A DNA stretch of 64,000 nt, from the IMG/VR virus record IMGVR_UViG_3300030333_003061, positions 22,118-86,117 of that record. One strand, 5' to 3'. This stretch comes from a virus. The notes beneath the pieces were generated by a model, which saw only the letters and a program-made list of their open reading frames with translations, made no database searches and was not told the origin of the DNA. This document shows positions 4,937 through 49,629 of the stretch, one piece after another (position 1 is the first letter of the stretch; each line of letters starts with the position of its first letter). The position numbers were made by a program, and so were the translations under genes.

Positions 4937-5398
4937 TCATTCTTCTTCATCCTCTTTAACCCACATAAATTGACTAAATTCTTGAAAGTGTTCACCGTTT
5001 GGCCCCACTCTAAAGAATATAGACATTTCTTCATTGTTACCAATGACTGTTGCCTTATCTAAGTATCGTTCCCACATACCAATTGTTCTTAAATCCGTTC
5101 CACTAAAATAAGCAGAACCAAATGGATGAGTGTGAATCCACTCTTTCAAAGGAAGTTTCATTCCTGGTAATTGGTCTTCTTGACCTTCAAAAGATACAAA
5201 ACCAGGAGTTCCGACACTAATGAATAATTTATCATTATTATCAATTACTACTTGAACTTCTCTCGGTTTATCAAAGGCTTCTTGAGACATTTCCCAAATC
5301 TTAGAATGGAAAAATATATTCCAATCATGCCCATAAGATTCTTCAATTTGTTCTTTCCAGTCATCTATCTTAATTTGCATTTCGCTATCACCCATCAT
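4937..5398 (-). CDS. JAB/MPN+ (JAMM) metalloprotease
   Basis: RE...WIHTHPFGSAYFSGTD matches E-x(n)-HxH-x7-S-x2-D. The start is probably 5398 or 5380 rather than the track start. Confidence 0.8.
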   Translation of the reverse strand: MMGDSEMQIKIDDWKEQIEESYGHDWNIFFHSKIWEMSQEAFDKPREVQVVIDNNDKLFISVGTPGFVSFEGQEDQLPGMKLPLKEWIHTHPFGSAYFSGTDLRTIGMWERYLDKATVIGNNEEMSIFFRVGPNGEHFQEFSQFMWVKEDEEE

Positions 5399-5730
5399 TG
5401 TATTGACCACCAATATCCAATTATCATTGCACCTATTAATACACAGGTAGTAATTACCCAATCAACTTTTGATGCCATTTCTGTTTCAGGAAAAGGTTCG
5501 CTCTGATAAGGTATATCTTCTACGATATCATCTTCAATAATATCAAAGATTGTTTCTGGCCACTTTTGACCTGTATGACTTCGATATTTACTTCTAACTG
5601 AGGGAACTGTTCTATTTTCCCATCCTGTCGCTATCATCTTCTCAGATGTTTCTTCTAAGGAAAAGCCCTTTTCAGCACACATTTCCATATATTCTACTTG
5701 TTCTTCTGTCCATTTACTCATATAGTTCAC
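5395..5730 (-). CDS. Myb/SANT-like HTH protein with C-terminal transmembrane helix
   Basis: KWTEEQ...RTVPSVRSK; hydrophobic C-terminus WVITTCVLIGAMIIGYWW. Confidence 0.55.
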   Translation of the reverse strand: MNYMSKWTEEQVEYMEMCAEKGFSLEETSEKMIATGWENRTVPSVRSKYRSHTGQKWPETIFDIIEDDIVEDIPYQSEPFPETEMASKVDWVITTCVLIGAMIIGYWWSIQ

Positions 5731-6391
5731 CTTTCAATTTATTTATTTTTGCTCTTATTTTTGCATTTCTTTTTGCTTGTTTTCTTTCCTTTCTGTTTTT
5801 AAGGAATATGTATAGTTTATCCAGCCATGTTAATTTAGTTTCGCCAGGGATAATTTTCACGATTGAATTATTTATCAACGCTGTATGTAAATCAGGGTTA
5901 TACTTTCTTAATCTAGCAAGACGGGTATGACAGCCTTTAACTGACCTACCTAAGTGGTTTGCTACTTTAGTTTGAACTTCTTCATCGGCTGTCCATTGAG
6001 CCACTAAATACTGTTCATCTGCTGTTGTCCATGATTTACCAGAATTTCTGGGTCTTGGCATATTTGACTTTAATGAGAAACTTGCTGCTTCATGGCCTTC
6101 TACTATAGTACCATCTACTTCGGTTTCTTCTTCTAATTCATCAAAGTTAATTATTCCTTCACCATCTAGTGGATTAAATTTAATACCCACAGGAATACCT
6201 GTAGTTCTATTCTTTCTAGTTAATCCGTATTCTTTTAGGATTAAATGTTTTTGTCCATGAACTGCACTCGCAGTTCGCTTATTATCGAATTTTTCATTTA
6301 GTAGTTTTACTACTTCATGAACATCCATTCCTTCTTCTAAAGCAAGATTCATCATGTAATCTTTTTCTTTCTTAGTCCATCTTACAGTCAT
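5714..6391 (-). CDS. protein with two Myb/SANT-like HTH repeats
   Basis: RWTKKE...RTASAV and SWTTADE...LGRSVKGC. Confidence 0.55.
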   Translation of the reverse strand: MTVRWTKKEKDYMMNLALEEGMDVHEVVKLLNEKFDNKRTASAVHGQKHLILKEYGLTRKNRTTGIPVGIKFNPLDGEGIINFDELEEETEVDGTIVEGHEAASFSLKSNMPRPRNSGKSWTTADEQYLVAQWTADEEVQTKVANHLGRSVKGCHTRLARLRKYNPDLHTALINNSIVKIIPGETKLTWLDKLYIFLKNRKERKQAKRNAKIRAKINKLKGELYE

Positions 6392-6963
6392 ATATTAATC
6401 ACCATTTTGTCTTTAATTTGTTCCCCATTATTCCATCTTTGCACCCATTGCGCTCCAATCCCTGCTATTGCAACATGAGTGAAATGTAAGTCTTTCTTAT
6501 CTAATGTATCATTAAATGCTTCACCTTGACAAGAGAATGAACCTTCTGGCCCACTTAGAAAGGTATCACATAGTTTTGGGTCAGCCAAATAACTAATCAA
6601 AGCACCATTTCTCCCTTGCGCTCTTAAGTCAAGCCATTGCGCTTTACAGTTAGATTGAAAGCCTTGCCTATAAACAAGTCGTCTCACATCTAAATTGTCG
6701 GCGCAACAAATAATTAAATCATACCCATTAAGTTGTTTGTCAGTGAGAATGGGATAAGGCAATCTCGTACAAGGATAAGACAATTCCAAACTATTGACCT
6801 TTGCTGCACCTAATTGATGCATTCCAAAGTTCTGATACGATACATTCTTTTCCTCTACAATATCTGGGTCTGCTATTGTAATATCATAGTTATCCGTCTT
6901 TAATAGTAAAGGGGTTAAATAACTACCTATACCACCTACTCCTATAATCAAGATTCTGCGCAT
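6388..6963 (-). CDS. ThiF/MoeB/E1-like adenylyltransferase
   Basis: ILIIGVGGIGS nucleotide-binding loop, DPDIVEEKN..YQ, CADN..R, candidate catalytic Cys in FSCQ. Confidence 0.85.
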   Translation of the reverse strand: MRRILIIGVGGIGSYLTPLLLKTDNYDITIADPDIVEEKNVSYQNFGMHQLGAAKVNSLELSYPCTRLPYPILTDKQLNGYDLIICCADNLDVRRLVYRQGFQSNCKAQWLDLRAQGRNGALISYLADPKLCDTFLSGPEGSFSCQGEAFNDTLDKKDLHFTHVAIAGIGAQWVQRWNNGEQIKDKMVINI

Positions 6964-7092
6964 CCGCAATCCTCTCCTGTACAACCCTTTAAACTCATAA
7001 ACATATTATACCAATACATTGCTGGTTTTTCTGGGTATCTTTCTAAATCTTCCATTTCTTTCGCCATTTTCATATACATTTCTTTTACTTGT

Positions 7093-8055
7093 CTATCCAT
7101 ATCTTACACCTGCTATAAATTGTTCTATTCTCATTCTCTTCAATTCTTTTTTGTTTGTATTTAAAATACCATATAGTTTTCTCATATTATCTCTTAGTCC
7201 TATTTCAGAGCATCCACAACTAGATGCTATTTCTGATTGAGTGTATTCTGGCCACCCGCCTCTTGTTCTCAATAAGCAAGTTATCCAGAATGATGCCGCT
7301 AAATGATTTTTAGAAAAATGCATATTTCTTTCAGTCACTTGAGTATAAACATATTCTGCTATAGTTCTAGTATCAGAAACAAATTCTCTTTCTCTAGTTT
7401 TTGTTCTGAATACATTAGACTGTTTTAATAAATCAACAGTTGCTTTTTCAATCATATTAGGTAAAGAATTCTGATGTAATAACCAAGGCTTCTTTAATTC
7501 TCTAGCAAAATATCTCGCTGCTTTTGATACAGATTGAGGGTTTTCACCATTATTCTTAGCAAGTTCTTGCAATGAAACAGATATACCATTTTCTTTTAGG
7601 ACTAAGAAAACTATTGCGGTTGCTCTAGTTCCTACTGTCCATCTGTAGGTATGTCTATCCTTAAAGAATGTTTTATAATAACTATAGGTTCTTTCCTTTA
7701 GATTATTATTAGGTAGCCATGGAGACAAAATCATATTACATTCTAGAATACCTTTACCCATATTCTTTATAGATTTATCTTGAAGCCAAGATTGATTTCT
7801 TCTTAGTCTAGAAACTAATTTCTTATTCATAGAAGAATCTACTGTTTGACCCATAATTGAACCCAATTCTCCTCTATCTCCTGAGCGAATAATTAATTCA
7901 CCATTTTCCATAGATACATTACTTACAGTTTCTTCAAATAAATGAGAAACCATTACATATCCACAGTCGGAACAAACTCTTTCACCTAACTTATCATCAA
8001 TATAGTTAGATTCACTTTTACATAAATCACATATCATCATGTTATCACAGCCCAA
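7093..8055 (-). CDS. tfb: transcription initiation factor IIB (TFB)
   Basis: N-terminal Zn ribbon CDLC...GERVCSDCGYV followed by two cyclin-like repeats ending TQSEIASSCGCSEIGLR. Confidence 0.85.
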   Translation of the reverse strand: MGCDNMMICDLCKSESNYIDDKLGERVCSDCGYVMVSHLFEETVSNVSMENGELIIRSGDRGELGSIMGQTVDSSMNKKLVSRLRRNQSWLQDKSIKNMGKGILECNMILSPWLPNNNLKERTYSYYKTFFKDRHTYRWTVGTRATAIVFLVLKENGISVSLQELAKNNGENPQSVSKAARYFARELKKPWLLHQNSLPNMIEKATVDLLKQSNVFRTKTREREFVSDTRTIAEYVYTQVTERNMHFSKNHLAASFWITCLLRTRGGWPEYTQSEIASSCGCSEIGLRDNMRKLYGILNTNKKELKRMRIEQFIAGVRYG

Positions 8056-9350
8056 GGAGCATCTTTATCTAAATTATCGAAATCATCAAATCTAGATTCT
8101 ATTCTTCCTTCTCTAACAGGTTTAGGAATATATTTTGCTATAGTATATACTAACTTCAATGTTACATCATCATTTAATAGAGCCAATGCTCTTGCAGCAT
8201 ATTGGTCTCCAACACTAGAGTTATCATGGATATTATCAATACAAATTGGCCCTCTTAGATTCCCATTATAGAATGTATTTTTTAGGTTATGTCTATTTCT
8301 AGGAACATATTCATTCCCTTCAACATGATTTTCTGCAAGTTCTAATTCATAAGATTCTGAAGTAATAAATGCATAGGTCTTAACCTTTTGAATAGCAGTT
8401 TTATATGTAGAATCAATAATTACCCAATCACATAGTTTTCCTCTAATACACATAATCGTGTTCTTTTCAAACTCAAAGAGTTTAATTCTGTTTGGGTATT
8501 TAACCGTTAGACTTTGCATTAATTCTCTTGCTCTATTCTCGACTAACTCTTGTGTTCTATTTTGAGACAAGAATTCCATCATTAGTTTCTCTTGAGATTC
8601 TGATGGAGGCTTCCCCATTAATATTGTCCATATTTTCTTAGGAGATTTATACGCCCACTTCTTCGCTCTAGAATGACCATGATAAAAATAGTTAATGAAT
8701 ACATCTAAATCTTTAATTGATATTGGTGCCCAAACTCCATCTGATATTTCTAATGCGCATTCTTCTGCACTAATCATTTGAGTATTAAGTCTAACTTCTG
8801 TCTTCTCAGAATCACCTGGAATGAAAAACCAATAAGGCGTTCTATTTTCTAATGCATAAGATACATTTTCTGGAAGAGTTATCATCTTAAAAACATAATC
8901 AGTTAAAACTAATCCATCTTTTTCAAAACAAGAACGATACACTCCTCTTGAAAGAGCAATCATCAAGTTTCTTTTTGTCATTCTATTTCCTAATAGATTA
9001 TAGTATGGGTTAGTTTTGTTTATGATAAATGTTGCCGGAGTTCCGTCTTCAAACGGAGAATTAATAAACTTGAATTTTACAGAGAATTCTTTTGGTGCAG
9101 CAGAATAACTTCTACTTCCCCAACCCAAGTTATTTTGTAATTCTTTCTTAATTGAAAGAATCATTGGTTCTCCTTTAGTAGCCTGTCTACTTAGTTTAAT
9201 TGGCCAGACTAATGTTCTATTAATATTTGATAAACTTCTTATTTGATATGTAGACTCAATATTAACTAATGTACTATAATATGTATCTCTTTCGTCATCT
9301 GCAGTATGGATTCTTATTTCTACTTCATAGGAATAAATATAATCATTCAT
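8037..9350 (-). CDS. hypothetical protein (437 aa)
   Basis: Long ORF in the operon; C-terminal RGKL...PICID...GDQYAARALALLND motif. Confidence 0.7.
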   Translation of the reverse strand: MNDYIYSYEVEIRIHTADDERDTYYSTLVNIESTYQIRSLSNINRTLVWPIKLSRQATKGEPMILSIKKELQNNLGWGSRSYSAAPKEFSVKFKFINSPFEDGTPATFIINKTNPYYNLLGNRMTKRNLMIALSRGVYRSCFEKDGLVLTDYVFKMITLPENVSYALENRTPYWFFIPGDSEKTEVRLNTQMISAEECALEISDGVWAPISIKDLDVFINYFYHGHSRAKKWAYKSPKKIWTILMGKPPSESQEKLMMEFLSQNRTQELVENRARELMQSLTVKYPNRIKLFEFEKNTIMCIRGKLCDWVIIDSTYKTAIQKVKTYAFITSESYELELAENHVEGNEYVPRNRHNLKNTFYNGNLRGPICIDNIHDNSSVGDQYAARALALLNDDVTLKLVYTIAKYIPKPVREGRIESRFDDFDNLDKDAPWAVIT

Positions 9351-9631
9351 TCCTCTTCCCCCAAGCCTAAAGTTTTTCTCAAATATTCAGGATTAACTCC
9401 ATCCATATAAATATGGACAATTATTGCTGCTTTAGGCAATCTATAAAAATTAGCCCAAGACATAATCTCTCCTTCAATTTTAGGTCGCTTTAATCCTAAA
9501 GGCTGAGACTTATTATATCCATATCCGTCATTATGCTTAGAAGCATATAGTTTCTTTTCTTTTAGCATATTTCTATAAACTTTAATGAGTTCACTCGTAT
9601 GCAAATTAGTATAAAGTTCTACATCATTCAT
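9347..9631 (-). CDS. hypothetical protein
   Basis: Operonic ATGA overlap. Confidence 0.55.
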   Translation of the reverse strand: MNDVELYTNLHTSELIKVYRNMLKEKKLYASKHNDGYGYNKSQPLGLKRPKIEGEIMSWANFYRLPKAAIIVHIYMDGVNPEYLRKTLGLGEEE

Positions 9632-10068
9632 TTAAAATTCACCGTCACAAATTCTACTTGTTCATTTCTTTTACTCTGAAATATATCCTGTGTTGTTATA
9701 TTAAACAGAATTATTTCCTTTCTTTTCTTTTGAGGATTAAATTTAAACTTCCAATAGATATGATGGTCATTCCATTTTGCCCCTTGAGTTGGAACTCTAA
9801 CCTTTGGCCAGGTTCCATTATAGAATTTTTCTATACTAGAACAATCTTTCAATATTTGTTCATTACTCATATCAGGAAAATACTTTTCCATTCTTTCCAT
9901 AAACTTCGGAGTCATTACGACCCAAAAGAACTGTTTGCTATTAGGCTTAGTTACTTTATGCTCCTCTGAAGAATAAGTAATATACTTTCTAGCACCACAT
10001 GCACTACAAACTAAATTACCCCATTCTAACAAAAAATTATCATTTCCACATTTACATTTCATCTTCAT
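9628..10068 (-). CDS. hypothetical protein with N-terminal Zn ribbon
   Basis: CKCG...VCSACG. Confidence 0.6.
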   Translation of the reverse strand: MKMKCKCGNDNFLLEWGNLVCSACGARKYITYSSEEHKVTKPNSKQFFWVVMTPKFMERMEKYFPDMSNEQILKDCSSIEKFYNGTWPKVRVPTQGAKWNDHHIYWKFKFNPQKKRKEIILFNITTQDIFQSKRNEQVEFVTVNFK

Positions 10069-10444
10069 TCACTTCCTTATATTTCTCTAAATGGTATAGA
10101 TTCACCATTTTTTGATGGAACTCTCCATCGTCTATACATTTTCCGCTTACTATAAATAGTCTGCGTAGATAGCGCAGCAACTCTCTAGGAGTTATTACCT
10201 CATCTATTGCGTCATCAATGGCTCGTATAGTAGCCGAATGTGCTGACACTTTATCATTATAGATATATCTCTCCCACTCATAAACAGTAGGGAGGACATT
10301 CTCTATAGTTTGCACTTCATCTAAGATTGCATCTTTAATGAAGGCAATCTGCTTTGGGGTTTTAATTACATTAAAACTAGATTTCACAAGCACCACCAGC
10401 ACAGGCAGGGTCATTTCCAAAATCTGTATTATCATCATCTTCAT
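10052..10444 (-). CDS. hypothetical protein (true start uncertain, probably downstream of the RNR stop)
   Basis: Open frame filling the gap between RNR and the next gene. The track start overlaps RNR by 68 nt. Confidence 0.45.
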   Translation of the reverse strand: MKMMIIQILEMTLPVLVVLVKSSFNVIKTPKQIAFIKDAILDEVQTIENVLPTVYEWERYIYNDKVSAHSATIRAIDDAIDEVITPRELLRYLRRLFIVSGKCIDDGEFHQKMVNLYHLEKYKEVNEDEM

Positions 10445-12269
10445 AAACCTGTGATAAATCTACATTAGTTAAAGATTGCATCATCTTTTCATAAGTCTCT
10501 TTAGTACATGTTTCAAATGGCGGTTGGTCATATTGTTGCATTTCTGGGAAACAAGACATTCCATTATAGAACCATCTATTTGACCACATCCATTCACCTA
10601 TTTCATCCCATTGGTCTTCTTTAATATAAACCGTAGCAGAAACATTATGGGTATTTTGACCATCTCTATGGCCAGGATTAACCCAATGAATTGTTGCATT
10701 TCTTACTCTTTCTAAGAACATAAAAGCATCTTCGTTTCTATTAGAATCCTTCGCGCTACTTGTGACCGCACCTACGGGTGCTTTTTGTGGTATTTCAATA
10801 ACTGCACCAGATACTTCATCCCATACATCATCCTTAACTAATTCAGGATGATTAAACTTAAGATAAGTATAAATTGGTTCCATCTTATTTACTCTAATTC
10901 TTCTAATATAATGAGGCGCATGCCAAGCATGAATACCTGATGAAGAACCTAATACACAAGATGCTGTTCCTGATGGTTTAATACATGTGACTCTTGAAGC
11001 CTCATTAATACCAATTATATTTGCTACTCTAGTATTTTCAGCCTTAGCCTTATGAACAGTTCCTGTTACATCTAATCCTACAGTAGCATTACTAGCAAGT
11101 CCTGTCATAGATACACCTAATAAAGCATCCTTTTCAGTTGTTGTCTGCCAAATATCTCTTAAATAATGGAAGTCAGTATAAGACGCTTGTAGTGTTCCTA
11201 AGAAAGTTGCCGCTTTAACTCTTGCATCTAAGTCTTCTTGATTCTCAACATTAGAAGCATTTATTTCTGTTAAATTACAAAATTGATAAGGTCTTAAGGC
11301 TATCTCACAACAAGGATTGGTTCCCCAATCTTTATCATTTGAGAAATAAACTCCAGGTTCTCCTTGACCTCCTCTTCTAATTCTATCCCATAGCATATCA
11401 AAAATAGGCTTCTTAATTTTATGTCGTAGAATAACTGCTGAATTGTTTGCTCTAAATCTCTGTGATTGAGTTTGCTGCCAATCTAATCCTGCTTTACAAT
11501 TAGTCATTTCTAAATCATCCATACTAAATAATGAAATTAATGCTGCTCTACGAATACCACCTGCTAATACTGCATCTGCAATATGACACATAATATCATG
11601 ACATTCTAAAGTTGTTAATTGCTCACCATCATTTTTAAGTTGAAGCATACTTTCAATAAGAACAAGACATTTTCTTAATGGTTGAGGGCCAGGGGCTTTT
11701 CCACCACTAGTTTTTAATATAGCACCTTTTGGTCTAATATCATCATAAATAAATCTAGGTGTTTGAGTTAATTCGCCTGTATAAGAACGGAATAATTCTT
11801 TAACTGCATCAGCCCATCCCATAATAGAATCTTCAATAACTATTTTTCTAGTTCTATTTGGATTAGGTTTACGAATTTCGGGCAACATTCTAACATGATG
11901 TTTTTGAACCGAATAACCTACTCCTGTTCCACCTAATAATAAAAACATTGCTTCGTGAAAACACGCTACATCATCTACAGGCATATAAGCACAATTGTAA
12001 ACACGATTAGGTGATAATTCAATTGGTTTACCTGCAAATTGCATTGAACGCATTGAAGGCAGTATTTTACGAGGTATAACATAGTTAGCATAAATCCCCT
12101 TAATCTCTTCAAGGAATTCAGGGTCATGGTCTGCAAATTTCTTTAAATGCATTTCCATATTTCTATTACACACTTCTTCCCAAGTTTCTTTTCTGTTTTC
12201 TTCTGGCAACCATTTTGCATATTTCATATATACAGTTATGTCGCTTAATATTTTGTTTGATAGTTCCAT
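10377..12269 (-). CDS. nrdJ: class II (adenosylcobalamin-dependent) ribonucleotide reductase
   Basis: YNCA, GTGVG, GGIRRAA, finger loop TNPCCEI, FCNLTE, IKPSGT, C-terminal CAGGACEI. Confidence 0.95.
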   Translation of the reverse strand: MELSNKILSDITVYMKYAKWLPEENRKETWEEVCNRNMEMHLKKFADHDPEFLEEIKGIYANYVIPRKILPSMRSMQFAGKPIELSPNRVYNCAYMPVDDVACFHEAMFLLLGGTGVGYSVQKHHVRMLPEIRKPNPNRTRKIVIEDSIMGWADAVKELFRSYTGELTQTPRFIYDDIRPKGAILKTSGGKAPGPQPLRKCLVLIESMLQLKNDGEQLTTLECHDIMCHIADAVLAGGIRRAALISLFSMDDLEMTNCKAGLDWQQTQSQRFRANNSAVILRHKIKKPIFDMLWDRIRRGGQGEPGVYFSNDKDWGTNPCCEIALRPYQFCNLTEINASNVENQEDLDARVKAATFLGTLQASYTDFHYLRDIWQTTTEKDALLGVSMTGLASNATVGLDVTGTVHKAKAENTRVANIIGINEASRVTCIKPSGTASCVLGSSSGIHAWHAPHYIRRIRVNKMEPIYTYLKFNHPELVKDDVWDEVSGAVIEIPQKAPVGAVTSSAKDSNRNEDAFMFLERVRNATIHWVNPGHRDGQNTHNVSATVYIKEDQWDEIGEWMWSNRWFYNGMSCFPEMQQYDQPPFETCTKETYEKMMQSLTNVDLSQVYEDDDNTDFGNDPACAGGACEI

Positions 12270-12272
12270 TTT

Positions 12273-12656
12273 CTAGCACCTTACCTGTTTTCTATATGGC
12301 ATTTCTGATAAATTGGAAAATGCCGAAATCCAATCCCCATTTCTTCTAATAGTCCATTCCTTTTCTACCCTTATTTTCCAATTGGGAAAAGTGGAATAGG
12401 CTTCTTCTCCCATTTTTTCATAGAGTTCATTAAAATCTCTATATTCTAATCCATCAAAATCAAAGACTGTGTTACCTTCACAAACTATTACTGCCTTTTT
12501 GCTAATTGCTAAGACATAACCAACAGGGTAAAAGTCGGCTCTAATTAGTGCTAAGTCTTGATATGTATTGTAGTTTTGCAGATTCCAACCGAATATTTCA
12601 AATATTTTCCCTATCAATTGTTTCTGCGCGTAATTCTCGTTGTCGTCTAAATTCAT
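12273..12656 (-). CDS. hypothetical protein
   Basis: ORF with GGAGG RBS. Confidence 0.6.
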   Translation of the reverse strand: MNLDDNENYAQKQLIGKIFEIFGWNLQNYNTYQDLALIRADFYPVGYVLAISKKAVIVCEGNTVFDFDGLEYRDFNELYEKMGEEAYSTFPNWKIRVEKEWTIRRNGDWISAFSNLSEMPYRKQVRC

Positions 12657-12682
12657 TCATTCTGCCTCCAATGATGAGAGGA

Positions 12683-12705
12683 GAGAGCATGGAGGCTATG
12701 CTCTC
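12683..12705 (-). terminator. stem-loop downstream of the Ubl gene
   Basis: GAGAGCAT-ggaggct-ATGCTCTC inverted repeat in the intergenic gap. Confidence 0.4.
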
Positions 12706-12737
12706 AACCCCTCAAAATTCTGACTATCATTAACGGC

Positions 12738-12938
12738 TTAATAGCCGCCAACGATAGCAGGTGTTAGGTCAACTGATTCAACAGTATCCCAATTTACATC
12801 TGAGATTACTTCTCTAGATGTTAATTCACCGTCAATAAAGACCCAATGTGTAGGATGGTCATTGATTTGCTCAATAACTTCCGTTTGGGTAACTTCAAGT
12901 TCTGTATGTCCTGTTTCATTAATTATTGTTAATAACAT
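12738..12938 (-). CDS. ubiquitin-like (beta-grasp, SAMP/ThiS/MoaD-like) protein with a 1-residue C-terminal extension
   Basis: 66 aa; WVFIDGE...VDLTPAIVGG-Y* closely matches ThiS/MoaD/SAMP C-termini; GGAGTGA RBS before ATG 12938. Confidence 0.7.
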   Translation of the reverse strand: MLLTIINETGHTELEVTQTEVIEQINDHPTHWVFIDGELTSREVISDVNWDTVESVDLTPAIVGGY

Positions 12939-14610: not shown

Positions 14611-14880
14611 TCATTCTTCTTCACTACTGAAATCTGATTCTGATACATCAAAATATGTTAAATTATTAACATAGTTTATTATATCTTTTAGACCTGTTGC
14701 GACTATTTCGTTTGTAATTACTTTAACTAATGCAGGTGTAGTTTTCACACCATACATATCAAACATATCAGGATTCATTTCATAATAAACCGATTCCCAA
14801 TTTAATGTCGTATTTCGTAGGAAATTTCGCGCACTTCTACAAGGCACACAATTGTCTGTGCTTAATAAAAGAAACTTCAT
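14611..14880 (-). CDS. glutaredoxin/thioredoxin-like protein
   Basis: CVPC active site and cis-Pro motif GVKTTP; a plausible reductant for NrdJ. Confidence 0.75.
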   Translation of the reverse strand: MKFLLLSTDNCVPCRSARNFLRNTTLNWESVYYEMNPDMFDMYGVKTTPALVKVITNEIVATGLKDIINYVNNLTYFDVSESDFSSEEE

Positions 14881-15209
14881 TCTTCTTCACCTTGCCTTTT
14901 CATTATGGAATTAAATTCTCTAGTTAATGCTTTAATCGTGTAATATATTGATGTTACACTCTTATGGTTTTGTTCTTTACCAATTGAATATAAACTATCC
15001 ATCGTTTCTAATGCTTCAACTGTTAACTTTTCATCAGCATTAAGTTTACTTCTATCTATCCCATAGATTCCCCATTCTGCATCAGTAAATATTCCAGCAA
15101 CAGACGCACATCTACATCTATTTCCGGCTTCTCCATGACCTCCGGCATTTTTACTATACATTCCGTAATCATTTTCTTTAGTATGCGCATATCTTTCTTT
15201 ATGAATCAT
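14877..15209 (-). CDS. hypothetical protein
   Basis: Operonic ORF. Confidence 0.55.
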   Translation of the reverse strand: MIHKERYAHTKENDYGMYSKNAGGHGEAGNRCRCASVAGIFTDAEWGIYGIDRSKLNADEKLTVEALETMDSLYSIGKEQNHKSVTSIYYTIKALTREFNSIMKRQGEEE

Positions 15210-23242: not shown

Positions 23243-23509
23243 TTACTCACTATCTTTTTCATCTTCTATAACCTCCACTATCATATTTAACAATTCTTCA
23301 TAATCAAATGTTTCACTACAATTACTACAATAATATGACCCGAGTTCTGAATCTAAATAATCCGAATAACCATATTCTAACTGAAAGGAATCTTCTACTT
23401 TAATAGGGAAAACCTCAGTTATTTGAAATACTGTTTCTTCTAATTGTATATCACACGGTTCATTAGGGTCGCTCTTATCTGCTATCTTACATTGAAACTT
23501 ATATTTCAT
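23243..23509 (-). CDS. small acidic Cys-containing protein
   Basis: FQC...PC...YYCSNC; last gene of the 3-gene cassette. Confidence 0.6.
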   Translation of the reverse strand: MKYKFQCKIADKSDPNEPCDIQLEETVFQITEVFPIKVEDSFQLEYGYSDYLDSELGSYYCSNCSETFDYEELLNMIVEVIEDEKDSE

Positions 23510-28546: not shown

Positions 28547-29307
28547 CTTGGTTTACTGTTCTAAAAATGCCTAATCCTTTTGGTGGAAATTGGCAAACTT
28601 TAACAAGTTCTGAATATTATACAATGGATGATAATAATAAACAAGTTTATCATAATGCTATGCAAAGTTTTTATCAAAGACAAATTAAAAGAGCAGTTAC
28701 ACCAAGAAAAGCAGGTCAAGCCCCACCTGCAACAGATGACCAAATTAGAGGACTTAGAGAATTGTCTAGATTCCATGAAAGACAAAAGGACAGAATTAAG
28801 TTTGATAGTCCTAAAGATAACTATTATTCTTTAGATGAAGAAAAAGATAGAACAATGTATAAACCACGATATGATGCAGTTGAGAGAATGCCTCATACTA
28901 CTAAAGAAATGTATGATAAATATTCAAGAGAGGAAAAAATGAAGTATTGGGGTCGGTTGGCTGAAAAGATAAAAAGCGAATATGGACAAACAGATACAGT
29001 AGCATTTGCGAAAAAGATGTATCGGAGAATGGCAAACAATCCAAATTATAATCCACCATTTGAAGGAGATAAATCAACTAGAGAAGAATATGGAGATAAA
29101 CATAGGTTTAGAGATGTTAGCGAGTATGATAATTTTACAGATGAAGAAAAAAGAAAATATCATCTAAGAATGAGAGATAGAGCAAAGAAAGTAAACAAAA
29201 AAGATGAGATGAATTTTCATGGTAAAATGCATAGGCGAATAGACAATAATAGTCCTTTACCCACTTATCCTACACCTGAAGCACAAAAGGAGGCAGAAGA
29301 AGAATGA
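28543..29307 (+). CDS. MxW-tagged protein with three internal repeats
   Basis: MTWFTVLK; EY.....EK.KY repeats. Confidence 0.65.
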   Translation: MTWFTVLKMPNPFGGNWQTLTSSEYYTMDDNNKQVYHNAMQSFYQRQIKRAVTPRKAGQAPPATDDQIRGLRELSRFHERQKDRIKFDSPKDNYYSLDEEKDRTMYKPRYDAVERMPHTTKEMYDKYSREEKMKYWGRLAEKIKSEYGQTDTVAFAKKMYRRMANNPNYNPPFEGDKSTREEYGDKHRFRDVSEYDNFTDEEKRKYHLRMRDRAKKVNKKDEMNFHGKMHRRIDNNSPLPTYPTPEAQKEAEEE

Positions 29308-48141: not shown

Positions 48142-49629
48142 ATGAACTTTATGGAAATATTATGGAATCAAGATAGTATTACCATAGAGAAAGCAAGTAC
48201 CACATTAGATGAAATAATGTCTTTAATTGGTAAACAAAAAGCAGTAAGTATGGGAATTACTAGAAAAGACTTACGAAAGCAATTAGAACAATGGGGAAAA
48301 GATTTTCAAACTTCTGAAAATAAACCAATGATATTTTGGTCTGATGCAGACATTAGTGCTCCTGATTTAAGTATGGGAAAAACCACTACTAGGAGAGCAA
48401 TTAAACCAAGAATTAATAATCCTTCATTTATGATAGATGCATTGATTCAAATAAAAACAGCAGATAATACCACAATTATTGATAAAATAATTAGTCTTCT
48501 TAGTGATAGGAAATCTAAAACAAAAAGAATACCAAGGGGCCAAGAAGACCCATATACAACAAGTGGAAAGGTTGGAGACAAAGAAATTAGAGAGTATAAT
48601 AATCAAGAAGACCCTCTACATGATTTATTAGATAAAATAGATAAAGGACATAATTATAGAAGAGATAGAAAATTACTTAGAGAGTTAATAGACAATAAAG
48701 TATTATCTAGTCATTATTTATCATTGGTATCGCAAGCACTATATGGAGAAAGTAAAAAAGTTCATCCAAGAATAATTGATTTACTAAGAAAACCAAAAGT
48801 ATACCAAGAATTTATGAGTTTCCTAAAATCACAAGGGAAGAATTTACCAAGAGAAGATGCTATGAGGGCTGCATTAGGAATGTTAGAAGGAAGAGCATCT
48901 TCAAATAAAAGAATAGTAGATTTATTGATTAATAGACCAGATGATTATAGGTTTAATGAATCAATGTATGATGGACATTTAGATATCATTAACTCTATAT
49001 TAAATAGAAATTTAGAAACTTTAGATGAAAGAATAGACCCAATAGCAGCAGAAGCAAACAATTATTGGGATGTTTTATTAGAAGAGATAAGAGAAGATTA
49101 TAATAATTTATCTAGACAACAAAAAAGAAAAACATCATCAGAACAGTTTGAAGGAAATAAGATAACTAATCTCATAAAAGAAATTCTTGAGGACATTCAA
49201 GACTTAGAACGCACACAAAAGGCAAAAGAAAAATTAATAGAAATAGGACAATCTAATGGTAAAAGTGGAACTATAAATAATACTGAATATGATGCAATGA
49301 TGGAAAAAGTTAACACATTAAAACAAACATATTATTTTAATAAATATACTGATGATGCACAAAGAAGAATGAATGATAGTGCTCCTGGAAAAAGGACAAT
49401 GCCCAAGAAAAAGAAAACTAATAATTTAGAGCGTCAAATAATTTCAAGATATCGAGAAATTAAAAGATTACTTAATGATGTAAAAAGAGAAAGGAATATA
49501 AAAACAGATTCTGATGTTGACTCTATGTTAAATGTAAGTAGAGATAGAGAAATATCTAGATACAACGATGCTTTAAGAGCAATTAGAGAACAATTCCCAA
49601 GAATAAATTTTGGAGATGAAGAAGAATGA
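48142..49629 (+). CDS. hypothetical helical protein (495 aa)
   Basis: GGTGAT RBS; long ORF. Confidence 0.7.
   Translation: MNFMEILWNQDSITIEKASTTLDEIMSLIGKQKAVSMGITRKDLRKQLEQWGKDFQTSENKPMIFWSDADISAPDLSMGKTTTRRAIKPRINNPSFMIDALIQIKTADNTTIIDKIISLLSDRKSKTKRIPRGQEDPYTTSGKVGDKEIREYNNQEDPLHDLLDKIDKGHNYRRDRKLLRELIDNKVLSSHYLSLVSQALYGESKKVHPRIIDLLRKPKVYQEFMSFLKSQGKNLPREDAMRAALGMLEGRASSNKRIVDLLINRPDDYRFNESMYDGHLDIINSILNRNLETLDERIDPIAAEANNYWDVLLEEIREDYNNLSRQQKRKTSSEQFEGNKITNLIKEILEDIQDLERTQKAKEKLIEIGQSNGKSGTINNTEYDAMMEKVNTLKQTYYFNKYTDDAQRRMNDSAPGKRTMPKKKKTNNLERQIISRYREIKRLLNDVKRERNIKTDSDVDSMLNVSRDREISRYNDALRAIREQFPRINFGDEEE

What the first reader, a model, noticed from the sequence alone, without database searches (positions are those of the whole stretch)
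4937..12938. Viral ubiquitin-like conjugation set: Ubl (GG-Y), E1/ThiF and JAB protease
Seen: a beta-grasp-like 66-aa ORF ending VGG-Y, an E1-like enzyme and a JAMM protease in the same minus-strand arm, interleaved with TFB and RNR. Established: a residue after GG must be removed by a JAB-type protease before E1 adenylation, and archaeal SAMPylation needs only E1 and JAMM. No sulfur-pathway genes are visible in the window. Inference: the virus tags host or viral proteins, or jams host Ubl-based defence.
Basis: partly seen in the sequence, partly recalled or inferred. Interest (0 to 1): 0.8.

Follow-up and report, generated by a model that had tools for sequence, protein, structure and literature searches.

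The report
Virus-encoded ubiquitin-like tagging kit
An abundant ocean virus of archaea carries a three-part ubiquitin-like system (small tag protein, activating enzyme, trimming protease), and its host archaea carry a diverged, apparently undescribed version that makes the tag as polyubiquitin-like tandem repeats.

Summary
The minus-strand arm encodes three proteins. One is a 66-aa beta-grasp protein ending AIVGG-Y. One is a compact (191 aa) ThiF/E1-fold enzyme. One is a JAMM protease with the complete E..HxHx7Sx2D motif.

The three genes co-occur in the same order in 50 of 53 related viral loci; the other three loci are truncated. They are also present in 3 of 3 near-complete relatives picked by capsid gene alone.

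In all 53 loci the tag ends in an invariant GG followed by 0, 1 or 2 unconstrained residues.

New here: the tag, the E1 and the JAMM each have diverged homologues in the chromosomes of the host order, Poseidoniales (Marine Group II). There the tag is made as two or three tandem units, each ending in GG. It is also found fused to the E1 or to an unknown Cys-bearing domain. The E1 and JAMM genes are always adjacent and are sometimes fused.

This architecture requires cleavage after GG. It links tag, E1 and protease functionally.

Protein conjugation, SAMP-like and without an E2, is the best reading (about 0.6) but is not shown. A sulfur-carrier role (about 0.2) is not excluded.

I found no paper describing this system in magroviruses or in Poseidoniales.

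The parts
12738..12938 (-). Ubl precursor, 66 aa. Beta-grasp fold; invariant motifs N-E-T-G-H-T and H-P-T-H-W; C-terminus AIVGG followed by one removable Tyr.
   Evidence: ORF and SD-like site. Conserved in 53 viral loci, with GG followed by 0-2 variable residues. Beta-grasp model with pLDDT 89.7 and beta-grasp-only structural neighbours.
6388..6963 (-). Compact E1-like adenylating enzyme, 191 aa. Carries GxGGxGS, D32/D34, K55, D89-N90 and R94. C145 is invariant within an S-x-S-C-Q motif in a flexible loop. It has no rhodanese domain and no CxxC zinc motifs.
   Evidence: Pfam ThiF above the cut-off. Alignment of 27 homologues. Profile against PDB: UBA5 at 1e-10, then MccB, Cap2, Uba4 and MoeB. 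Model pLDDT 90.7, with the loop at residues 137-155 at low confidence. Foldseek finds the E1 fold. Groups with the host compact E1s, apart from the hosts' canonical E1.
4937..5398 (-). JAMM/MPN+ metalloprotease, 147-153 aa from ATG (174 aa from an upstream TTG). Predicted to trim the Ubl after GG and probably to remove conjugates.
   Evidence: E41 and HxHx7Sx2D are invariant in 29 homologues. A family profile hits AMSH-LP, STAMBP, Sst2 and an Rpn11-like protein. Present in every related locus that is long enough, including loci whose Ubl already ends at GG.
8037..9350 (-). Conserved 437-aa protein of unknown fold between Ubl and E1, with invariant C370 in the motif G-P-I-C-I-D-N. A possible partner or target; membership in the system is unproven.
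   Evidence: Present in all related loci that are long enough. Alignment A6. No Pfam, PDB or Atlas relative. Resembles the host X domain only in a short motif; hhalign probability 0.6-6%.
12273..12656 (-). Conserved 127-aa protein directly downstream of the Ubl. Every homologue ends in an invariant C-terminal Cys (...R-C). Its role is unknown.
   Evidence: Found in about 40 of 53 loci. Alignment A8. No Pfam, PDB or Atlas relative.
7093..8055 (-). Viral TFB (TFIIB-like) gene lying next to the E1. Context only, not shown to be part of the system.
   Evidence: TFIIB zinc ribbon and NCBIfam TFIIB matches. Conserved next to the E1 in the viruses. A TFB gene lies next to the host operon in only 1 of 12 host loci.
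10377..12269 (-). Class II (B12-dependent, RTPR-like) ribonucleotide reductase lying between the Ubl and p437. Not part of the system.
   Evidence: phrog_367 at 3e-125 and TIGR02505 at 6e-76. Absent from about nine related loci that keep Ubl, E1 and JAB.

Best explanation
The virus, a magrovirus-type tailed virus of Poseidoniales archaea, encodes a self-contained ubiquitin-like modifier pathway. The proposed steps are:
1. The Ubl is made as a precursor ending GG-Tyr.
2. The JAMM protease cuts after the second Gly.
3. The compact E1 adenylates the exposed Gly carboxylate using ATP.
4. The Ubl probably passes to the invariant Cys145 of the E1 as a thioester.
5. The Ubl is then attached to lysines of viral or host proteins without a dedicated E2, as in archaeal SAMPylation and eukaryotic urmylation.
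6. The JAMM also reverses the modification.

The pathway is an anciently diverged copy of a chromosomal system of the host lineage. In the host the same tag is produced as polyubiquitin-like tandem repeats and as fusions.

Shown: the folds, the catalytic motifs, the invariant GG boundary, gene co-occurrence, fusions between the components, and homology to the host system.

Inferred: cleavage by the JAMM, adenylation, the thioester, and above all the final acceptor being protein.
For: (1) The folds and motifs of all three proteins are as expected.

(2) GG is invariant and what follows it is unconstrained. In 53 viral loci the ending is GG plus 0, 1 or 2 residues of any kind. Over 110 representative relatives, 112 of 121 unit ends are GG. 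They are followed by nothing, by short tails, by another unit, or by another domain.

(3) Fusions link the components. There are tri-Ubl and di-Ubl proteins in which each unit ends in its own (V/L)VGG, Ubl-Ubl-E1 and Ubl-E1 fusions, and Ubl-X fusions. There is also an E1-JAMM fusion protein of 429 aa directly downstream of a Ubl gene.

(4) Co-occurrence is strong. In viruses the three genes are together in 50 of 50 informative loci and in 3 of 3 near-complete genomes picked by capsid gene. In hosts, E1 and JAMM are adjacent in 12 of 12 loci. Across 121 host genomes the counts are 59 with both Ubl and JAMM, 11 with JAMM only, 1 with Ubl only and 50 with neither.

(5) The JAMM is kept in viral loci whose Ubl already ends at GG (L018, L021, L022, L025). 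It therefore does more than trim tails.

(6) Tandem-repeat precursors fit a tag that is consumed stoichiometrically. They fit a recycled sulfur carrier less well (inference).

(7) The compact E1 has no rhodanese domain. The viral genome shows no rhodanese, no PP-loop sulfurtransferase and no other sulfur-pathway family. Each of three host genomes checked also has a separate canonical E1 of 390-410 aa, so the compact system is an additional pathway. Iyer et al. 2006 note that sulfur-type Ubl/E1/JAB operons have E1-rhodanese fusions, whereas the conjugation-type ones never do (PMC1779556).

(8) There is an experimental precedent for the cleavage logic. In Type I Bub systems the JAMM-E1 fusion BubCD cuts the Ubl-E2 fusion BubAB right after the conserved Gly (PMC11601596).
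Against: No conjugate has been observed and no E2 or E3 was identified.

The E1 is unusually small. It has Tyr (His in hosts) where canonical E1s have the phosphate-binding Arg of the N-x-x-R-Q motif. It also lacks the CxxC zinc motifs, so its chemistry may differ from that of known E1s.

The Ubl has no conserved lysine, and the window's copy has none at all. Chains through a fixed lysine are therefore unlikely.

The C-terminal motif (hydrophobic-P-x-hydrophobic-V-G-G) looks as much like ThiS/MoaD as like ubiquitin. The structure search cannot separate the two classes, because the Z scores are tied.

The gene next to the Ubl encodes a protein with an invariant C-terminal Cys. That could be a sulfur-relay feature.

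JAMM proteases also serve sulfur-carrier pathways.
Confidence: 0.6

Rival explanations
1. Sulfur carrier. After trimming by the JAMM, the Ubl is adenylated by the E1 and converted to a C-terminal thiocarboxylate by a host sulfur donor. It then delivers sulfur to a biosynthetic reaction, such as tRNA or nucleotide thiolation or cofactor synthesis, as in ThiS, MoaD, TtuB, CysO and QbsE. The JAMM matures the carrier or releases an adduct, like QbsD or Mec+.
For: The Ubl tail is ThiS/MoaD-like, and the beta-grasp hits to MoaD, ThiS, CysO and TtuB are tied with the ubiquitin-type hits. Bacterial ThiS/MoaD + E1 + JAB operons are tied to sulfur chemistry (PMC1779556). No E2 was found. The adjacent p127 has an invariant C-terminal Cys. 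The Ubl has no conserved Lys.
Against: No rhodanese domain is present on the E1 or anywhere else in the viral genome. No PP-loop thiolase, MoaE, ThiG, cysteine synthase or desulfurase appeared among the Pfam hits. Hosts already have a canonical E1 for such pathways. Tandem tri-Ubl precursors and very high conservation of the tag (60-89%, the best-conserved gene of the module) are unusual for a recycled carrier. The Ubl matches neither Pfam ThiS nor any solved carrier by sequence.
Confidence: 0.2
2. Interference with the host's own homologous Ubl system rather than independent tagging. The viral JAMM would strip host conjugates or mis-process host poly-Ubl. The viral Ubl and E1 would act as decoys that titrate host components.
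For: The host order carries homologues of all three proteins. Viral and host versions share the family-specific motifs: T-G-H in the Ubl, W-L-D-L-R and S-C-Q in the E1, and the full JAMM motif.
Against: The virus keeps a complete set with all catalytic residues intact, and its Ubl is under the strongest conservation in the module. Viral E1s form one clade on a long stem (96/97 support, stem length 2.5), at about 30% identity to host E1s. That fits an orthogonal pathway better than mimicry. A decoy would not need an active E1.
Confidence: 0.12
3. A ThiF-like ligase acting on something other than protein. The E1 would adenylate the Ubl C-terminus (or another carboxylate) to form an amide or ester with a small molecule or nucleic acid, as MccB, PaaA and AclA-type ThiF enzymes do in peptide natural-product pathways.
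For: The E1 profile and model also match MccB, PaaA and AclA at 1e-9. The E1 lacks several canonical E1 features.
Against: The substrate is a well-folded 66-aa beta-grasp, not a short peptide. The GG boundary, the poly-Ubl precursors and the JAMM partnership are hallmarks of Ubl systems. No other natural-product enzymes appear in the module.
Confidence: 0.05

Closest known systems
Archaeal SAMPylation (SAMP1-3, UbaA, HvJAMM1 of Haloferax volcanii)
   Same: A beta-grasp tag with C-terminal GG, a single E1 with no E2 or E3, and a JAMM that cuts both linear fusions and conjugates (PMC4443979 abstract). Both occur in Euryarchaeota-type hosts.
   Different: The E1 is 185-200 aa. It lacks the CxxC zinc motifs and has Tyr or His in place of the motif Arg. 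The NCBIfam UbaA model scores 20.7 bits against a cut-off of 450. In the tree the E1 separates from the hosts' canonical E1. The Ubl is a sequence family of its own. The system is virus-encoded, and the host relatives are poly-Ubl precursors.
Type I Bub (6E.1) systems: BubAB (Ubl-E2 fusion) and BubCD (JAMM-E1 fusion)
   Same: A peptidase-E1 fusion and a Ubl made as a fusion precursor that is cut right after the conserved Gly. Ubls have 1-3 beta-grasp domains (PMC11601596). Host relatives here have an E1-JAMM fusion and Ubl-X fusions.
   Different: Bub systems have an E2 and a DUF6527 serine protease, work through oxyesters, and their E1 lacks a catalytic Cys. Here there is an invariant Cys, no E2 was detected, the domain order is E1 then JAMM, and each tandem unit ends in its own GG. 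The BubCD sequence match is weak (6e-4). Bub is a bacterial defence system, whereas this is on an archaeal chromosome and in a virus.
Eukaryotic polyubiquitin and ubiquitin-fusion genes
   Same: Head-to-tail units that each end in GG, a capping residue after the last unit, and fusions of the tag to unrelated proteins. All of these need endoproteolytic maturation (established knowledge of UBB/UBC and UBA52/RPS27A).
   Different: No sequence relation. The units are joined by 4-6-aa linkers. The likely processing enzyme is a JAMM rather than a UCH or USP. The viral copies are single units.
Sulfur-carrier sets with a JAMM (QbsC/D/E and PdtF/G/H; CysO-Mec+)
   Same: A ThiS-like tag whose extra C-terminal residues are removed by a JAMM before activation by the E1 (my own knowledge for QbsD/QbsE). 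The operon types are listed in PMC1779556, Table 1 rows 4a-4d.
   Different: In those systems the E1 is fused to rhodanese and sulfur-using enzymes share the operon. Neither is present here.
Lambda/T1 phage tail assembly proteins TAPI (Ubl) and TAPK (JAB-NlpC/P60)
   Same: A virus-encoded beta-grasp protein with a C-terminal Gly, partnered with a JAB peptidase (PMC1779556).
   Different: That set has no E1 and lies in the tail module. Here the genes lie in the replication/expression arm together with an E1.
E1-like genes reported in archaeal viruses (RaFAH survey; Asgard virus Nidhogg)
   Same: ThiF/MoeB-type genes have been noted as common in archaeal viruses, with speculation about ubiquitination (PMC8276007; 10.1101/2021.07.29.454249).
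   Different: Only the E1 was reported. No cognate Ubl, JAMM partner, GG-tail pattern or host poly-Ubl system was described. Three magrovirus papers do not mention any of these genes.

Membership tests
Ubiquitin-like beta-grasp modifiers/carriers (Ub, SAMP, Urm1, ThiS, MoaD) | Beta-grasp fold | tested here: met
   AF2 model with pLDDT 89.7 and the b-b-a-b-b-(a)-b order. Foldseek ranks ubiquitin and NEDD8 first. VIA-align gives Z 5.3-4.1 to Fubi, a bacterial Ubl, ISG15, MoaD, ThiS, CysO, TtuB, SAMP1 and Urm1.
Ubiquitin-like beta-grasp modifiers/carriers (Ub, SAMP, Urm1, ThiS, MoaD) | Conserved C-terminal Gly-Gly that is, or becomes, the free C-terminus | tested here: met
   GG is invariant in 53 viral loci and followed by 0-2 variable residues. 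112 of 121 unit ends are GG across 110 representative relatives.
Ubiquitin-like beta-grasp modifiers/carriers (Ub, SAMP, Urm1, ThiS, MoaD) | Sequence membership in a named family (Pfam ThiS or ubiquitin; solved relatives) | tested here: not met
   No Pfam, PHROG, NCBIfam or PADLOC family at E<=1. The profile finds no solved Ubl.
E1-like adenylating enzymes (ThiF/MoeB/UBA, PF00899) | Family model above the curated threshold, and the E1 fold | tested here: met
   50.2 bits against 28.1. Foldseek: UBA5 at 2.5e-11 and MoeB/ThiF at TM 0.75 over the whole protein.
E1-like adenylating enzymes (ThiF/MoeB/UBA, PF00899) | Nucleotide-binding GxGGxG, ribose-binding Asp, Lys, and the Mg-binding Asp of the D-N-x-x-x-R motif | tested here: met
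   G8xG10G11xG13, D32/D34, K55 and D89-N90...R94 are invariant in 27 sequences. The D-N motif aligns to cvDNfeaR of UBA5.
E1-like adenylating enzymes (ThiF/MoeB/UBA, PF00899) | Phosphate-binding Arg of the N-x-x-R-Q/L motif | tested here: not met
   The position is Tyr43 in the viruses (aligned to Arg of UBA5 N-M-N-R-L) and His in the host compact E1s.
E1-like adenylating enzymes (ThiF/MoeB/UBA, PF00899) | Catalytic Cys on a mobile loop after the adenylation core | tested here: inconclusive
   C145 is invariant within S-x-S-C-Q, in the only low-confidence loop of the model (residues 137-155). The same S-C-Q motif occurs in host E1s. Its equivalence to the crossover-loop Cys was not verified by superposition.
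JAMM/MPN+ metalloproteases | E...H-x-H-x(7)-S-x(2)-D zinc and catalytic motif | tested here: met
   E41, H83, H85, S93 and D96 are invariant in 29 sequences.
JAMM/MPN+ metalloproteases | Family model above the curated threshold | tested here: not met
   Prok-JAB scores 17.5 bits against a cut-off of 25. The family profile does reach AMSH-LP, STAMBP, Sst2 and an Rpn11-like protein at 4e-4 to 5e-3.
Archaeal SAMPylation (SAMP/UbaA/HvJAMM1) | E1 orthologous to UbaA | tested here: not met
   NF047750 scores 20.7 bits against a cut-off of 450. The compact E1 clade separates from the hosts' canonical E1 with 100/100 support.
Archaeal SAMPylation (SAMP/UbaA/HvJAMM1) | Isopeptide conjugates formed without an E2 or E3 | not testable with these tools
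   No E2 was found (the PADLOC E1-E2 models match only through their E1 part; UQ_con gave no match, but its control rang nowhere). Conjugates require experiment.
Bacterial Bub (6E) / Bil / CBASS Cap2-Cap3 | E2 domain in the operon or fused to the E1 or Ubl | tested here: inconclusive
   No E2 was detected in the virus. The host X domain fused to the Ubl carries an invariant Cys, but it has no Pfam or PDB relative.
Bacterial Bub (6E) / Bil / CBASS Cap2-Cap3 | DUF6527 (BubE) protease, or the tandem IAD-AAD E1 of BilD | not tested
   Not searched for specifically. The E1 here is a single adenylation domain of 191 aa.
JAMM-assisted sulfur-carrier pathways (QbsCDE/PdtFGH, CysO-Mec+) | E1 fused to, or accompanied by, a rhodanese domain | tested here: not met
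   No rhodanese in six frames of the 86-kb genome; the control rang in 13 of 14 genomes. The E1 ends right after the adenylation domain.
JAMM-assisted sulfur-carrier pathways (QbsCDE/PdtFGH, CysO-Mec+) | A sulfur-using partner enzyme in the gene set | tested here: inconclusive
   None appeared among the Pfam hits of 82 ORFs plus 10 large ORFs of the plus arm. No ATP_bind_3 match either. However, p437 and p127 have unknown folds, and the remaining structural-arm ORFs were not scanned individually.

The most novel reading that the evidence does not exclude
Poseidoniales archaea, among the most abundant microbes of the surface ocean, possess an unrecognised ubiquitin-like protein-tagging system with polyubiquitin-style tandem precursors and a minimal E1. 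Their magroviruses captured it long ago and run an orthogonal copy as a core early function to re-programme the infected cell. One example would be marking host proteins, possibly transcription factors that the viral TFB replaces, for turnover. This would be the first complete virus-encoded Ubl conjugation pathway outside eukaryotic viruses.
Probability: 0.2. Interest if true: 0.9.

Novelty: new variant of a known kind. Interest (0 to 1): 0.75.

Why it matters
Ubl/E1/JAMM triads are known from archaea (SAMPs) and from bacterial defence systems. A complete, conserved triad as a core module of an abundant archaeal virus group has not been described in the literature I could search.

The follow-up also found a host-side system that independently arrived at the polyubiquitin gene design. 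It has tandem GG-terminated units, a capping residue, and fusions to other proteins.

The E1 is one of the smallest full E1 folds (about 185-190 aa). That makes it an attractive minimal model for Ubl activation.

If conjugation is confirmed, several things follow. Virus-driven protein tagging could be studied directly in a major marine host-virus pair. The case would bear on how ubiquitin-type precursor processing evolved before eukaryotes. It would also give function to three of the conserved 'hypothetical' genes of magroviruses.

Tried and rejected
The genomic context of distant relatives therefore came from the search for related loci, the listing of cluster members and the genome search.
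- A single-protein scan of viral contigs with the E1 found nothing. The same was true for P0011 and P0001. This is a limit of the exact-pattern pre-filter: tblastn on the loci fetched with the Ubl found the E1 in 50 of them.
- tblastn of the E1 against GenBank phage records gave no match.
- The ESM Atlas gave no usable hit for p127 and only chance-level hits (0.81) for p437. A cluster at 0.76 that carries UQ_con in 13% of its members is not evidence.
- PDB profile searches for p437, p127 and the host X domain found nothing meaningful.
- The idea that viral p437 is the counterpart of the host X domain rests on a recurring short motif (I-C-I-D...G-D-Q...A-L-L-N-D against I-C-I...D...A-L-x-D-D). 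hhalign probability is only 0.6-6%, so I do not claim it.
- I checked for a functional link between the system and TFB. A TFB gene lies next to the host operon in only 1 of 12 host loci, so there is no support from synteny.
- The WD40 rows at the top of the JAB profile search are repeat artefacts; every single stretch has E>100.
- No RNA holder was listed among public runs for the 8-kb stretch. This says nothing about expression.
- A second structure job went to the E1, so no model of the JAB, p437 or p127 could be made. No complex prediction is offered by the tools.

Full report
**What is in the window**

The window is 64 kb of an 86,117-bp IMG/VR virus record that is 92% complete. It has two divergent gene arms. 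It encodes a terminase, a portal protein, an HK97/SU10-type capsid protein, family B DNA polymerase, RFC, two ATP-dependent ligases and a TFB. This is the gene content of a tailed archaeal virus of the magrovirus type. Its class II RNR matches what Philosof et al. report for magrovirus group B (PMC5434244).

**The observation**

- *The small ORF (12738-12938).* It starts at an ATG preceded by GGAGTGA and encodes 66 aa ending TPAIVGG-Y. It matches no family in Pfam, PHROGs, NCBIfam or PADLOC, and no solved protein by sequence. An AlphaFold2 model built on 21 homologues is confident (pLDDT 89.7) and is a beta-grasp. Foldseek puts ubiquitin and NEDD8 first. An independent aligner returns almost only beta-grasp proteins of both the modifier and the sulfur-carrier classes, at tied Z scores of 5.3-4.1.
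- *The E1-like protein (6388-6963).* It passes the Pfam ThiF threshold. Its model has pLDDT 90.7, and the whole 191-residue chain superposes on UBA5, UBA3, Cap2, ThiF and MoeB.
- *The protease (4937-5398).* It is below the Pfam threshold. However, the full JAMM motif, E41...H83-x-H85-x7-S93-x2-D96, is invariant in 29 homologues. The family profile reaches AMSH-LP, STAMBP, Sst2 and an Rpn11-like protein.

**More than chance**

A scan of IMG/VR with the Ubl gave 53 loci at 60-89% identity, on contigs of up to 98 kb. Fifty of them also carry the E1 and the JAMM on the same strand and in the same order. The usual order is p390 - Ubl - p127 - (RNR) - p437 - TFB - E1 - JAMM. The three exceptions end before the position where the genes would lie.

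To remove the dependence on the Ubl query, I picked relatives by the capsid gene. I then searched the five longest records. The three that are at least 90% complete and one that is 75% complete have all three genes. A 57% fragment lacks all three.

The Ubl is the best-conserved protein of the module, better conserved than the RNR.

**The C-terminus**

In all 53 loci the protein ends (P/Q)-A-(I/V)-(V/I)-G-G. This is followed by nothing (5 loci), by one residue (C, Y, F, N, Q or I), or by two residues (SQ, HY, WA, GY, NY, KL, QY, SC, SY, NL, TE, NC, CY, AF, NV, AI, NI or SL). An invariant boundary followed by free sequence is the signature of a tag whose working end is the second Gly.

The JAMM is kept in loci whose Ubl already ends at GG (L018, L021, L022, L025). 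Tail trimming therefore cannot be its only job.

**Wider relatives and the host**

A profile of the Ubl searched against 1.84 billion representative proteins found 137 clusters. Their sequences include:

- proteins of three or two tandem Ubl units, each unit ending in its own (V/L)VGG, joined by 4-6-residue linkers, with a 1-4-residue cap after the last unit (P0001, P0008, P0009, P0020, P0021, P0024, P0026, P0055);
- Ubl-Ubl-E1 and Ubl-E1 fusions whose E1 part has the same compact form and motifs (P0011, P0036);
- Ubl fused to an unknown domain X (P0013, P0061, P0031, P0042).

Over all complete units, 112 of 121 end in GG.

The named members of these clusters are Candidatus Poseidoniales and Poseidoniaceae MAG proteins, on contigs of up to 789 kb and 2.0 Mb. 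The tri-Ubl gene was found in 32 species-level genomes of that kind.

Locus L087 shows a plainly cellular context: an ABC transporter, glycosyltransferases, GDP-mannose dehydratase, a radical-SAM enzyme and a phosphate transporter. Within it, a Ubl-Ubl-E1 fusion is followed by an overlapping JAMM gene and a small 81-aa gene.

In 12 of 12 host loci fetched, the compact E1 and the JAMM are adjacent on one strand. In L092 and L094 they are one 409-429-aa E1-JAMM protein directly after a Ubl gene that ends LVGG-E.

The viral JAMM profile hits 70 of 121 sampled genomes of the host order, and the viral Ubl profile hits 60. The cross-tabulation is 59 with both, 11 with JAMM only, 1 with Ubl only and 50 with neither. 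The Fisher p-value of 7e-22 is inflated because the genomes are related.

Each of three host genomes checked also has a canonical ThiF/MoeB of 390-410 aa. In a maximum-likelihood tree the compact E1s of viruses and hosts form one clade apart from the canonical ones (100/100 support). The viral E1s are monophyletic (96/97) on a long stem. This points to one old transfer followed by long separate evolution. The direction of the transfer is not resolved.

**How it most likely works**

*Shown.* The folds; the catalytic motifs of the E1 (GxGGxGS, D32/D34, K55, D89-N90, R94) and of the JAMM; an invariant Cys145 in S-x-S-C-Q in the only flexible loop of the E1 model, with the same S-C-Q motif in host E1s; the GG boundary; and fusions joining Ubl to E1 and E1 to JAMM.

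*Inferred.* The JAMM cuts after GG. Poly-Ubl and Ubl fusions cannot work otherwise, and the JAMM is the only peptidase in the set. In Type I Bub systems a JAMM-E1 fusion has been shown to cut a Ubl-E2 fusion right after the conserved Gly (PMC11601596). The E1 then adenylates the Gly and probably forms a Cys145 thioester.

*The last step.* For the final acceptor I favour protein lysines without an E2, as in SAMPylation, at about 0.6. My reasons are:

- tandem precursors suit a tag that is consumed;
- the tag is conserved like a protein with many partners;
- the E1 has no rhodanese, and the virus has no recognisable sulfur-pathway gene;
- the host keeps a separate canonical E1;
- Iyer et al. 2006 found rhodanese fusions in sulfur-type Ubl/E1/JAB operons but never in conjugation-type ones (PMC1779556).

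**What speaks against this reading**

- No conjugate has been seen and no E2 was found.
- The E1 is minimal. It has Tyr (His in hosts) in place of the motif Arg, and no zinc motifs.
- The Ubl has no conserved Lys.
- Its tail is as ThiS/MoaD-like as it is ubiquitin-like.
- The neighbouring p127 ends in an invariant Cys. That could belong to a sulfur relay.

The sulfur-carrier reading therefore keeps about 0.2. Interference with the host's homologous system gets about 0.12. A non-protein ligation gets about 0.05.

**Comparison with known systems**

The system works most like archaeal SAMPylation. In its precursor logic it resembles Type I Bub systems and eukaryotic polyubiquitin.

It is not an orthologue of UbaA (20.7 bits against a cut-off of 450). 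Its Ubl belongs to no named sequence family. No E2 or Bub/Bil-specific component was found.

Two papers had noted ThiF/MoeB genes in archaeal viruses and speculated about ubiquitination (PMC8276007; the Asgard virus preprint). Neither reports the tag or the protease. Three magrovirus papers mention none of the three genes. Searches linking Poseidoniales or magroviruses with ubiquitin-like, ThiF, JAMM or MoeB found nothing relevant.

**Verdict**

The follow-up adds a host-side poly-Ubl system. I rate this a new variant of a known kind, with interest 0.75.

Noticed in passing
window 4937-4945, 9347-9352, 14877-14880, 15206-15209, 23506-23509, 29304-29307, 49626-49629 and others: Twelve of 122 predicted proteins of the genome end in ...EE or ...EEE, including the JAMM, whose G-E-E-E end is conserved in 28 of 29 homologues. 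In most cases the stop overlaps the next gene's start as GA(A/G)GA(A/G)GAATGA. The acidic tails therefore look like an embedded Shine-Dalgarno-like site plus an ATGA overlap for translational coupling. After the JAMM the overlapping ATG opens only a 25-codon ORF.
   Followed up: partly
window 12273-12656 (-): The p127 family, directly downstream of the Ubl, ends in an invariant C-terminal Cys (...R-C) in all 20 aligned homologues. W24, D41-F42-Y43, W93 and W101 are also invariant. No known relative was found. A terminal Cys recalls sulfur-relay arms (DsrC/TusE), but this was not tested.
   Followed up: partly
window 12683-12705 (-): An 8-bp hairpin (GAGAGCAT / ATGCTCTC with a 7-nt loop) lies between the Ubl stop and the p127 start. 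It might raise the level of Ubl transcript relative to downstream genes. I did not fold it or compare it across relatives.
   Followed up: no
L093:10937-14947 (host genome G105, contig C1): A 1336-aa ORF carrying the H-D-S-F-G-T-H motif typical of T7-like single-subunit RNA polymerases lies 2 kb from a compact Ubl-JAMM-74aa-X-E1 cluster in a Poseidoniales-type genome. The Ubl of that cluster ends VFG instead of VGG. This may be an integrated element.
   Followed up: no
L055:13652-13990 (-) and L055:13449-13625 (-), outside the window (genome 13.4-14.0 kb): The viral genome encodes a PemK/MazF-like toxin-fold protein (Pfam E 4e-16) next to a DUF2061 membrane protein (5e-21). They lie between the two halves of a split family B DNA polymerase region.
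   Followed up: no
host loci L087:11586-11831, L092:8416-8661, L095:8739-8978, L097, L099, L094: A small, roughly 80-aa acidic protein follows the JAMM gene in most host operons (34-38% identity between genera). It may be a fourth component. No viral counterpart was detected.
   Followed up: partly
L065 and L070 (genome contigs): Two contigs carrying the Poseidoniales tri-Ubl gene sit in MAGs labelled Salipiger bermudensis and Rhodobiaceae. They are probably mis-binned archaeal contigs. One JGI record names the tri-Ubl 'archaellum component FlaG', which is probably a misannotation.
   Followed up: no
window 5395-5730 and 5714-6391 (-): Two Myb/SANT-like small proteins lie between the E1 and the JAMM. 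One has weak PHROG hits to transcriptional regulators. They are poorly conserved among relatives, so the spacing between E1 and JAMM varies.
   Followed up: partly
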